This document shows positions 32,901-35,900 of a stretch of 64,000 nucleotides of DNA, in pieces. Location of the stretch: NCBI RefSeq assembly GCF_002854065.1, contig NZ_CP024147.1. The stretch is one strand, 5' to 3'. Position 1 is the stretch's first letter, and each line of letters starts with the position of its first letter. A program made the position numbers. This stretch comes from Escherichia coli. Lineage in GTDB: Bacteria > Pseudomonadota > Gammaproteobacteria > Enterobacterales > Enterobacteriaceae.

Positions 32901-35900
32901 CTCATCCTGTTTCTCGCGATACACCCCAGCAAAGGAGGCGTTACCAAACGGGCTAAGTACCAGACCTTTGATATCGTACCGATAGGCCTGCAAACGCAAT
33001 GACGACGCAAGCGGCAAAATGGGCAATTCCTGCGCCAGAATACTCTGCGCTTCGTCATAGGCTTCAATACGCGCCGCCAGCTGCTGCGAGGAGAGCGCCT
33101 TACGCAACACGCTGTCGAATTTCGGATCGCACCAGTGGGCGAGGTTGGTCTGTGAATGAATTGCCGCGCAGCTCAGTAACGGACGGAAGAAACTGTCCGG
33201 GTCGTTACTGTCCGTCGCCCAACCGGATAACGTCAGATCATGGCTCATATCCATCAACCGCGCCTCCTGAAAGCGACCTTCTATCGGCACAATCACCACT
33301 TTTACGCCAACCTGCGCCATATCCGCCTGAATCAGTTCGGCAGTTTTCAGTGGACTGGGGTTCCACGCCTGCGAACGTGTGGGCACCCACAGTTTCAGCG
33401 TTAAATTTTCCAGCCCCAACGACTTCAACTGTTCGCGCGATTTCGCCGGATTGTATTCAGTAATTTTAGCCTCGTTGTCATAGGCCCACGAGGCGCGCGG
33501 TAAAATAGAGGCCGCCGTTTCAGCCGTACCATAATAGATGGATTGCATCAGGCGCTGGTTATTAATCGCCAGTGCCAGCGCATGGCGGACAGCGGGATTA
33601 TTTAGCGGCGGTTTGGCGGTGTTAAATGCCAGATAGGCGACGTTCATCCCAGGACGCAGCGTTAAACGCAAGCGCGGGTCGTCACGCAAAATGGATAGCT
33701 GGCTGGCAGCAGGCCAGGCCAGAACGTCGCATTCACCAGTCAGGAGTTTCGACAGACGTCCGGTGCCGCCGGAGCCTAAATCCACCACTACCTGCGGCAT
33801 TAACGGTTTACCGCGCCAGAAGTCATCATGACGTTGTAGGCGAATAAATTGCCCGGCGCGGTATTCCGACAATTGATACGGACCGGTGCCGACCGGTTGA
33901 CGGTCGAGTTGCTCCTGGCGATCTTCTTTCTCTAACTTCCGGGCATATTCTGCCGACATGACCGAAGCATAATGGGTTGCGAGGTGCCACAAAAAAGAAG
34001 CATCCGGCTGGGCGAGTCGGAACTCAACGGTATGATTATCCAGTTTACGGACGCTTTTCACGTTATCGGCAAATTGCAGGCTGTCGAAGTAGGGGAAGTT
34101 GCTGCCGTTGACGTTATGCCACGGGTTGTTGCGGTCAAAAATTCGCTGGAAGGTAAACACCACATCGTCGGCATTCATTTTACGAGTGGGAGTAAACCAG
34201 TCGGTTTTTTGAAACGGAACATCGCGACGTAGGTGGAAGCGATAGGTCGCGCCGTTGTCGAGTACTTCCCAGCTTTCGGCAAGTTCTGGCATCAGGCGAT
34301 AGGTATAGGGATCGACATCCAGCAGTCGATCATAAAACTGGGCGGCAAGGGTATCGACAATTAACCCACTGCTCGCTTTGGATGGGTTAAAGGTGTTGAC
34401 TTGCCCGCTGACGCAATAGACAAAACCGCTGTCGCGGATATCAGCATGCGGGGGGGATTCAGGCGCGGCGATTGCCTGACCACTCACAAGTCCAGCAATC
34501 ACCAAAAGAGACGATAATACCTGGCGCATAATATTAAGGGATTTTATGTAAAGAGGCTATCTTACTAATATTTAATGACATTTGCCATTACCGTTTGTGT
34601 TCAGGGGTCGTAATGAGGGCCGTGTGGTTGGTCGTTGAACAGATGGCGTCGCCATCTGTTCAACATTCGTACCCGTGATTTCTCTATAACTATAACTCAC
34701 AGAACAACTTAGCGAGGAGCAGAGCGGTACGATCGTGAGAAACCCATTAAAGCACGCTGCAATGCGTGTCATTTTAACCGGATGCAGCGTGAACGCTTTA
34801 TCCGGGTAACGATACTGACCGATCGTCTGCAATTAAATAATTACTCATTACCCCATTGATTCAAAAACTCTGCGATCTCATCAATGCGTACGGGATTAAT
34901 CCCCGCTTCAGCAGCCATTTCATGTTGGGCTTCTTCGCTGATCTCTTCATTGTTCATCAAACGGGTGAGCAGTAACTGGAAGTAGTGGGCCAGCGGTGTG
35001 CGTTCAGCCTCTGCGACAGGCTCTGCGCATTCGGTCGCGTACTCATCGGCAATATCAAAATATTTTAGCGGGATATCGTGGTTCATTATTTGCCCCTGGG
35101 GTTAATGCGCTAAGCATAAGGGCGGATGATAGCACTCGTGATCCGGGTCATACATCTTTTTATAGTTAATGGCGCGGCGCATTACCCTCAGGCAGGATAA
35201 TGCGCCGCGCATCCGACTATTACGTTTCGCTCACTGGCGTTCTGTCACCTTCGTACAGCGGCACTTTGCGATAGCGGCGGATCAGATACCACAAATATGC
35301 GCCGCCTAACGAAGCCCATACCAGACCGAGTGTCAGTGACGTTGACTCGAGGTTAACCCACAGCACACCCACCGTCAGCGCGCCAACCAGCGGCATCAGC
35401 AAATAGTGGAAGTGATCCTTCCAGCTTTTATTCATTCCTTTGCGCCGCCAGAAATGATTAAACACCGACAGATTCACGAAGGTAAACGCCACCAGAGCAC
35501 CGAAGTTAATTAACGCTGTGGCGGTAACTAAATCGAAGAACAGCGCCGACAACGCGACAATCCCGACCATAATGACGTTCAGTGCCGGAGTCCGCCATTT
35601 TGGGTGCACATAGCCAAACACGCGCTCCGGAAACACATTGTCACGCCCCATCACATACAGCAGACGCGACACGCTGGCATGTGAAGCCAGGCCAGAGGCT
35701 AACGTGTTCACAAACGTGGTGCAGAGGAAAATCGACTGGAAGAGCTTGCCGCCGACGTACAGCGCAATTTCAGGCAGTGCGGCGTCCGGGTCTTTAAAGC
35801 GGCTGATATCGGGGAAGAACAGCTGCATAAAGAACGACGCCGCGATAAAGATAACGCCACCATAGACCGCCGTCAGGAAGATGGCTTTCGGGATCACGCG

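What the first reader, a model, noticed from the sequence alone, without database searches (positions are those of the whole stretch)
34634..34664. Perfect 15-bp inverted repeat upstream of sapA, next to a degenerate REP-like element
GTTGAACAGATGGCG-T-CGCCATCTGTTCAAC is a perfect palindrome in the 311-bp gap between ymjA and sapA, with no clear T-tract on either side, so it is not an obvious intrinsic terminator. A degenerate REP-like palindrome (CCGGATGCAGCGTGAACGCTTTATCCGG, 34778-34806) lies nearby. It could be a regulator binding site or an RNA structural element in the sapA 5' region.
Basis: seen in the sequence. Interest (0 to 1): 0.3.

Follow-up and report, generated by a model that had tools for sequence, protein, structure and literature searches.

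The report
Strain-variable hairpin in sapA leader
The perfect 31-bp palindrome upstream of sapA is real, but it is a recently perfected, minority E. coli version of an old imperfect inverted repeat in the leader of one sapA transcript, with no sign of being a conserved terminator, operator or RNA switch, so it is ordinary.

Summary
The palindrome is confirmed at 34634-34664: 15 + 1 + 15 bp, perfect and single-copy. It is far longer than chance gives.

Published full-length transcript mapping in K-12 places two sapA start sites here. P1 maps to window 34552 and P2 to 34682, both on the minus strand. The hairpin is therefore +19..+49 of the P2 leader and -82..-112 from P1. It also lies inside ymjA-to-sapA read-through RNA. 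It has no U-tract, and long transcripts cross it.

Evolution argues against a selected structure:
- The ymjA-sapA junction exists only in Escherichia.
- The arm next to P2 is constrained (pi 0.056), while the arm next to sapA drifts at the neutral rate (pi 0.187, against 0.151 at sapA third codon positions).
- None of the 14 stem pairs shows a compensatory change.
- The perfect allele is derived and is exact in 743 of about 5,422 E. coli records. The other major alleles have 1, 2 (K-12) or 3 (B2) changes.
- Predicted stem energy runs from -23 down to -6 kcal/mol across alleles and species.

Best reading: a transcribed, non-terminating leader stem-loop with no conserved function, made perfect by ordinary mutation or template-switch correction.

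The neighbouring REP-like element (34778-34805) is a genuine REP relative.

The parts
34634..34664 (-). Perfect 15+1+15 palindrome. On the transcribed (minus) strand it folds as a 14-bp stem with a 3-nt loop, -23.3 kcal/mol.
   Evidence: One locus per genome in 5,421 E. coli genomes.
34650..34664 (-). 5' arm of the RNA hairpin (the arm next to P2). It belongs to a conserved block.
   Evidence: pi 0.056 across 14 Escherichia lineages, against 0.151 at sapA third codon positions.
34634..34648 (-). 3' arm of the RNA hairpin (the arm next to sapA). It evolves at about the neutral rate and carries the polymorphisms that make or break the palindrome (34643 A/G, 34646 G/A, 34634 G/A).
   Evidence: pi 0.187. 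Alleles.
34682..34682 (-). sapA distal transcription start P2 (K-12 NC_000913.3 1357263). It gives a 153-nt leader that contains the hairpin.
   Evidence: SMRT-Cappable-seq Supplementary Data 2 of PMC6131387. Coordinates transferred with offset window = NC_000913.3 - 1322581, checked on the sapA CDS ends.
34689..34694 (-). TATAGT, a -10-like hexamer 7 nt upstream of P2, invariant across Escherichia.
   Evidence: Its role as the -10 element is inferred.
34552..34552 (-). sapA proximal transcription start P1 (K-12 1357133), giving a 23-nt leader. The palindrome lies at -82..-112 from it.
34559..34564 (-). TAAGAT, a -10-like hexamer 7 nt upstream of P1. This block is shared with Klebsiella and Pseudocitrobacter.
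   Evidence: pi 0.016 for 34530-34596.
34778..34805 (+). REP-type palindromic unit just downstream of ymjA.
   Evidence: 2-mismatch copy at 44966-44993 with 0 expected by chance. naRNA4 (REP-derived) match over 34741-34807, E=0.0016.
34841..35086 (-). ymjA (DUF2543). Its transcripts read through into sapA.
   Evidence: Units b1295|b1294(|b1293) from TSS 1357699/1357701.
32886..34529 (-). sapA, first gene of sapABCDF.

Best explanation
The palindrome is a transcribed but unselected stem-loop. It lies on the template for two kinds of RNA: sapA mRNA started at the distal promoter P2 (hairpin at +19..+49 of a 153-nt leader) and ymjA-to-sapA read-through RNA. It is upstream of, and absent from, mRNA started at the proximal promoter P1.

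In RNA it would fold into a 14-bp stem. Because it lacks a U-tract it does not act as an intrinsic terminator.

Its perfection is recent. The inferred Escherichia ancestor had about 13 of 15 pairs, most E. coli have 12-14 of 15, and a G-to-A transition at 34643 produced the perfect allele seen here. One arm is conserved only because it sits in the constrained block around P2. The other arm drifts neutrally.

Shown: the sequence, its uniqueness, the position of mapped start sites, read-through in K-12, the allele frequencies, and the lack of covariation.

Inferred: that the hairpin forms in vivo, and that its effect on sapA expression is small or nil.
For: - Sequence and chance.
- No terminator-like site.
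- K-12 start sites 1357133 and 1357263, plus ymjA-sapA units, in PMC6131387 Supplementary Data 2, mapped to NC_000913.3. Each start lies exactly 7 nt after a -10-like hexamer.
- The ymjA-sapA junction is found only in Escherichia. In Salmonella, an Enterobacter-like genome and Yokenella, sapA follows pspF directly, and there is no palindrome there.
- Allele counts for the 39-mer: perfect 743, G allele 1,663, K-12 allele 1,713, B2 allele 1,045 of about 5,422 records.
- Stem energies -23.3, -18.6, -15.9 and -12.0 kcal/mol for these alleles, and -6.4 to -12.8 in other species.
- 0 of 14 pairs have compensatory change, and 8 of 14 depart only by broken pairs.
- pi of the two arms is 0.056 and 0.187, against the neutral proxy 0.151.
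- No Rfam family matches. No second copy in genomes. No relative in phages or true plasmids.
Against: - A stem in the same register is still predicted in every Escherichia allele, and the P2 leader folds better than shuffles (z = -4.1). A weak structural role is therefore not excluded.
- An ancestral 13/15 inverted repeat is itself beyond chance and needs an origin.
- The read-through evidence comes from K-12, which has the 2-mismatch allele, and from a library that was size-selected above 1 kb. Partial 3'-end formation at the perfect hairpin would have been missed.
- No expression data compare the alleles.
Confidence: 0.58

Rival explanations
1. The hairpin is a functional RNA stability or processing element. 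It would block 3'-to-5' exonucleases and define a stable 3' end for ymjA RNA after Rho-dependent termination or cleavage downstream (as REP hairpins do). Alternatively it would modulate decay, RNase III cleavage or translation of the P2 leader.
For: - Strong stem on the transcribed strand (-23.3 kcal/mol).
- A stem in the same register is predicted in all Escherichia alleles.
- Leader z-score -4.1.
- It sits in RNA that is known to be made.
- Short ymjA-only transcripts could not have been seen in the size-selected library.
Against: - No compensatory change in any of 14 pairs.
- The 3' arm evolves at the neutral rate.
- About a fifth of E. coli records (B2 allele) have a stem of only -12 kcal/mol.
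- The 18-nt single-stranded 5' end makes it a poor 5'-end protector.
- No Rfam match.
- No 3' end for sapA or ymjA was found in the supplement text held for PMC7815308, but that is a weak negative because the files may be incomplete.
Confidence: 0.2
2. The palindrome is the operator of a dimeric DNA-binding regulator. Bound there, the protein would block elongation from P2 (site at +19..+49) or act on P1 from -97.
For: - Perfect dyad symmetry.
- A location overlapping the early transcribed region of P2.
- One arm is conserved.
Against: - Only one half-site is conserved. The other is neutral and carries 1-3 changes in 86% of E. coli records.
- Arms of 15 bp with a 1-bp spacer are unlike usual operators.
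- The half-site has no other copy in the window beyond chance or in E. coli genomes.
- It is not a PuuR box; those cluster at 39147-39333.
- No sapA binding is reported in the two putrescine/LysR regulator papers checked.
Confidence: 0.08
3. The perfect form was produced by quasi-palindrome template switching during replication, which copies one arm from the other and preferentially corrects imperfect inverted repeats to perfect ones. This explains origin rather than function and is compatible with the best explanation.
For: - Two successive pair-creating substitutions on the line to this allele (13/15 to 14/15 to 15/15).
- The perfect allele sits on at least two flanking haplotypes: O157:H7 against the BL21/EC931 and window/XJ6-3 groups.
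- The mechanism and its bias are documented for E. coli (PMC5941160; PMC7202029, listed).
Against: - Each step is a single base change (one transversion, then one transition), which ordinary mutation explains equally well.
- By my rough count, about 2 pair-restoring changes among roughly 25 substitutions in the arms is close to the roughly 1 expected by chance.
- The two haplotype backgrounds can also be explained by a short recombination tract.
- No multi-base templated change toward complementarity was seen. N96 shows clustered changes away from it.
Confidence: 0.14

Closest known systems
REP / BIME extragenic palindromes of E. coli
   Same: An intergenic, transcribed, stable stem-loop without a U-tract that sits downstream of a gene. 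A true REP lies 114 bp away (34778-34805).
   Different: Single copy per genome, with no similarity to the REP consensus. The REP-derived Rfam family matches only the neighbouring element.
Rho-independent (intrinsic) terminators
   Same: A GC-containing hairpin in an intergenic region between two co-oriented genes.
   Different: No U-tract on either strand. Long capped transcripts from the ymjA and P2 starts continue into sapA in K-12.
Quasi-palindrome mutational hotspots and perfect inverted repeats of proteobacteria (PMC5941160, PMC7202029)
   Same: An imperfect inverted repeat in most strains, with a natural allele that is the perfectly complementary version. This is the class of short perfect inverted repeats known to be over-abundant in E. 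coli.
   Different: PMC5941160 reports that a majority of the perfect inverted repeats it examined are more conserved than expected (abstract). This one is not conserved in its perfect form: K-12 itself is imperfect. Templated origin is not demonstrated.
5'-UTR stem-loops that stabilise mRNA (ompA-type; from general knowledge)
   Same: A strong hairpin near the 5' end of a leader.
   Different: It begins 18 nt from the 5' end rather than at it. It is present only on the minor, distal-promoter transcript. No conservation of pairing.

Membership tests
Intrinsic terminator | Stable GC-rich stem-loop | tested here: met
   14-bp stem, -23.3 kcal/mol.
Intrinsic terminator | Run of U immediately 3' of the stem | tested here: not met
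   The minus strand continues GACCAACC and the plus strand continues ATTCGTAC. The scan found 0 terminator-like sites.
Intrinsic terminator | Transcripts end at the site | tested here: inconclusive
   Long reads from the ymjA and P2 starts cross it in K-12. However, the library excluded RNAs under 1 kb, and K-12 carries the 2-mismatch allele.
REP/BIME (for the 31-bp palindrome) | Many dispersed copies sharing a consensus | tested here: not met
   One locus per genome; the two 'places' reported are the two strands of the same site. No other copy in the window.
REP/BIME (for 34778-34805) | Matches other REP copies or the consensus | tested here: met
   2-mismatch copy at 44966-44993 with 0 expected. 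naRNA4 match E=0.0016, below the gathering score. Not annotated as REP in NC_000913.3.
Dimeric transcription-factor operator | Both half-sites conserved among relatives | tested here: not met
   pi 0.056 against 0.187 for the two arms. There are 3-7 differences from the perfect sequence in other species.
Dimeric transcription-factor operator | Related sites at other promoters, or a known motif | tested here: not met
   Half-site matches are at chance level in the window. No extra genomic copies. Not a PuuR box.
Dimeric transcription-factor operator | Protein binding at the site | not testable with these tools
   No ChIP or SELEX table covering K-12 1357215-1357245 could be reached.
Structured cis-regulatory leader RNA (riboswitch or attenuator type) | Match to a curated family | tested here: not met
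   No relevant Rfam hit in 33500-36000 at E up to 10.
Structured cis-regulatory leader RNA (riboswitch or attenuator type) | Pairing maintained by compensatory change | tested here: not met
   0 of 14 pairs have a change on both sides. The 80% of cells paired equals the shuffled mean of 80.8%.
Quasi-palindrome subject to template-switch correction | Imperfect inverted repeat able to form a hairpin, with variants that restore complementarity | tested here: met
   Alleles with 1-3 mismatches coexist with a perfect allele. The inferred order is 13/15, then 14/15, then 15/15.
Quasi-palindrome subject to template-switch correction | Evidence that the change was templated (multi-base correction or excess recurrence) | tested here: inconclusive
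   Only single-base changes were seen. The perfect allele occurs on at least 2 flanking haplotypes, which recombination could also explain.

The most novel reading that the evidence does not exclude
The site is a naturally segregating quasi-palindrome that E. coli lineages have repeatedly corrected toward a perfect hairpin by replication template switching. The resulting roughly two-fold range in leader stem stability (-12 to -23 kcal/mol) would then tune expression of the sapABCDF putrescine exporter from its distal promoter. That would make it a strain-level expression polymorphism created by a structure-directed mutation bias.
Probability: 0.1. Interest if true: 0.35.

Novelty: new member of a known kind. 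Interest (0 to 1): 0.12.

Why it matters
It matters little.

Two by-products are useful:
- The ymjA-sapA gap can now be read as two conserved promoter blocks, P1 and P2, each matching a published start site, separated by a neutrally evolving spacer that the palindrome straddles.
- The locus offers four common natural alleles of one leader hairpin. These could serve as a ready-made series for testing whether 5'-UTR stem stability affects expression, or whether quasi-palindrome correction operates in natural populations.

Tried and rejected
- Rfam scan of 33500-36000 at E up to 10: only a sub-threshold REP-type match next door.
- Promoter and terminator consensus scan: no terminator, and no promoter at the palindrome.
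- Half-site search in the window: chance-level matches only.
- Search for extra copies in 5,426 E. coli genomes: none; the apparent second place is the other strand of the same site.
- Phage and plasmid collections: nothing apart from mislabelled chromosomal DNA.
- PuuR box (recalled from memory as AAAATATAATGAACA): it hits a cluster at 39147-39333 but not the palindrome.
- Putrescine/LysR regulator papers: no sapA site reported.
- RNase III literature search: no paper held all four search terms.
- 3'-end and start-site supplements: no sapA or ymjA entry in PMC7815308 or PMC4782308. No supplement text is held for PMC6061677 or PMC4161252. Two other papers are not held at all.
- The promoter proposed from RpoD SELEX (ATGACA-15-TTTAAT, PMC3946193; roughly 34749-34775 by my placement) has no matching start site in the SMRT-Cappable-seq table, so I did not use it.
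- A 21-codon upstream ORF starts at the hairpin base (34601-34666). I rejected it as a conserved coding unit because it has a stop at codon 4 in the B2 and MOD1 alleles and mostly non-synonymous divergence between species (hand translation).
- The paper that mentions ymjA most often after the antibiotic screen uses a ymjA::kan marker only as a linked genetic marker.

Full report
**Observation.** The window is E. coli. On the minus strand the order is puuA, puuP, ymjA (34841-35086), a 311-bp gap, then sapA (32886-34529). The sequence GTTGAACAGATGGCG-T-CGCCATCTGTTCAAC occupies 34634-34664 exactly as reported. In 100 first-order Markov simulations of the window, no perfect inverted repeat with arms of 14 bp or more appeared, and only one reached 13. 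The real window has three loci with arms of 13 bp or more (34634, 52353, 11842), so this is a normal class of feature for this genome rather than a unique oddity. No terminator-like site is found on either strand of 34300-35300. The neighbouring REP-like element is real and runs 34778-34805. It has a 2-mismatch sibling at 44966-44993. The stretch 34741-34807 weakly matches the REP-derived Rfam family naRNA4.

**Where it sits relative to transcripts.** Supplementary Data 2 of the SMRT-Cappable-seq study of K-12 (PMC6131387; reads mapped to NC_000913.3) lists these minus-strand start sites:
- 1357133 and 1357263 for units beginning with sapA (b1294).
- 1357699 and 1357701 for units b1295|b1294 and b1295|b1294|b1293, which are ymjA transcripts that continue into sapA.

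The offset window = NC_000913.3 - 1322581 reproduces both ends of the sapA CDS. With it, the starts fall at window 34552 (P1) and 34682 (P2). Each lies exactly 7 nt downstream of a -10-like hexamer: TAAGAT at 34564-34559 and TATAGT at 34694-34689. This agreement independently supports the coordinate transfer.

The hairpin is therefore +19..+49 of the 153-nt P2 leader. It lies inside ymjA-sapA read-through RNA, and it is at -82..-112 from P1, whose leader is only 23 nt. Long transcripts cross it in K-12. There are two caveats. That library excluded RNAs under 1 kb, and K-12 carries a 2-mismatch allele. Partial 3'-end formation at the perfect hairpin is therefore not excluded.

**Population and phylogeny.** The region is present once in 5,421 of 5,426 complete E. 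coli genomes. Exact matches of the 39-mer around the palindrome are as follows:

| Allele | Difference from perfect | Records (of about 5,422) |
|---|---|---|
| Perfect (includes O157:H7 and BL21) | none | 743 |
| G allele | G at 34643 | 1,663 |
| K-12 allele | additionally A at 34646 | 1,713 |
| B2 allele | three differences | 1,045 |

The perfect form is thus the rarest of the four major alleles.

In six other Escherichia lineages, including E. albertii and E. whittamii, the palindrome carries 1-7 differences from the perfect sequence. Rooting on E. albertii, the ancestral stem is inferred as about 13 of 15 pairs. The E. coli line gained one pair, and the window's allele gained the last through a G-to-A transition at 34643.

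Outside Escherichia, ymjA is not next to sapA. In Salmonella, an Enterobacter-like genome, P0123's host and Yokenella, sapA follows pspF directly. In Citrobacter, Klebsiella and Pseudocitrobacter it follows other genes. Only the P1 core, and more weakly the P2 -10 region, can be aligned with Klebsiella and Pseudocitrobacter. No palindrome is present in any of them.

**Tests of selection on the structure.**
- On ten distinct alleles, none of the 14 stem pairs shows a change on both sides, and eight pairs depart only by broken pairs. The share of paired cells (80%) equals the shuffled expectation.
- Predicted minus-strand stem energies fall from -23.3 (perfect) to -18.6, -15.9 and -12.0 kcal/mol in the other major E. 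coli alleles, and to between -6.4 and -12.8 in other species.
- A diversity profile over 14 lineages shows two constrained blocks: P1 (34530-34596, pi 0.016) and P2 (34650-34716, pi about 0.04). A spacer separates them.
- The arm next to P2 (34650-34664) has pi 0.056. The arm next to sapA (34634-34648) has pi 0.187, which is indistinguishable from sapA third codon positions at 0.151.
- The palindrome therefore straddles the edge of a conserved promoter block and a neutral spacer. It is not conserved as a unit.

**What it most likely is.** It is a transcribed, non-terminating leader stem-loop without conserved function. Its perfect symmetry in this strain is a recent accident of mutation (confidence about 0.58).

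**Rivals.**
- RNA stability or 3'-end-defining hairpin (0.2). A residual stem exists in every allele and the P2 leader folds unusually well (z = -4.1). Against this are the lack of covariation and the neutral arm.
- Operator for a dimeric regulator (0.08). Against this, only one half-site is conserved, there are no other copies, and there is no match to the PuuR box.
- Template-switch correction of a quasi-palindrome, as an account of origin (0.14, not exclusive). This is a documented bias in E. coli (PMC5941160). It is hinted at by two successive pair-creating changes and by the perfect allele occurring on at least two flanking haplotypes. It cannot be distinguished here from ordinary point mutation plus recombination.

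**Comparison with known things.** The element behaves like the many short perfect inverted repeats of E. coli intergenic regions.
- It fails the defining tests for an intrinsic terminator, because it has no U-tract.
- It fails the tests for a REP element, because it is single-copy and has no consensus.
- It matches no curated RNA family.
- It fails the test for a conserved operator.

It fits the description of a quasi-palindrome. It is unannotated, but it is a new member of a known kind, and interest is low.

Noticed in passing
window 34601-34666 (minus strand): A 21-codon ORF (MLNRWRRHLFNDQPHGPHYDP*) starts with an AUG whose G is the first paired base of the hairpin, and it runs through the whole stem. 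It stays open in most Escherichia species despite many substitutions. It has a stop at codon 4 in the B2 and MOD1 alleles, and it diverges mostly non-synonymously.
   Followed up: partly
window 52353-52387: An even longer perfect inverted repeat (16-bp arms, 3-nt loop: AATATGCCTGATGGTG / CACCATCAGGCATATT). It lies just after a stop codon and also lacks a clear T-tract.
   Followed up: no
window 11842-11867: A perfect 13+13 palindrome (AAAGCCACGGATA/TATCCGTGGCTTT) flanked by an A-run and a T-rich tail. It looks like a bidirectional intrinsic terminator.
   Followed up: no
L107 (E. coli clone D i2, phylogroup B2) 1958-3039: This strain lacks the puu cluster. ymjA is followed by a 108-bp puuP remnant and then pspF, so the puu genes are variably present next to this locus.
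   Followed up: no
L005 2747-2800 and L006 2747-2790: Two divergent Escherichia lineages have no REP element after ymjA. Instead they carry a short hairpin followed by a T-rich tail (for example GGCCAGTTCGGGCTGGCTTCTT), giving a ymjA-sapA gap of only 226-239 bp. The REP appears to have replaced, or been inserted at, a small terminator-like hairpin.
   Followed up: partly
window 39147-39333: Three matches (0-2 mismatches) to the 15-mer AAAATATAATGAACA, which I recalled as the PuuR box, cluster near the puuD/puuR junction. This is more than chance: 6 matches in the window against 2 expected.
   Followed up: no
window 34749-34775 (minus strand): The sapA promoter proposed from RpoD genomic SELEX (ATGACA-15-TTTAAT, PMC3946193) lies in the poorly conserved region next to the REP. 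It has no matching start site in the SMRT-Cappable-seq table, which instead supports P1 (34552) and P2 (34682).
   Followed up: partly
ymjA, window 34841-35086: A 2026 overexpression screen (PMC12924614) reports that ymjA raises the nalidixic acid MIC more than 12-fold and the trimethoprim MIC 6-fold. The gene is otherwise uncharacterised (DUF2543). Outside Escherichia it sits in a different neighbourhood.
   Followed up: no
L088 about 1860-1900 (Klebsiella sp., upstream of sapA): At the position that aligns with the E. coli palindrome, Klebsiella has only a short imperfect inverted repeat (CGTTGGT-CAAATA-ACCGACG). This could be a small ancestral hairpin that was later extended in Escherichia. 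I read it by eye only.
   Followed up: no
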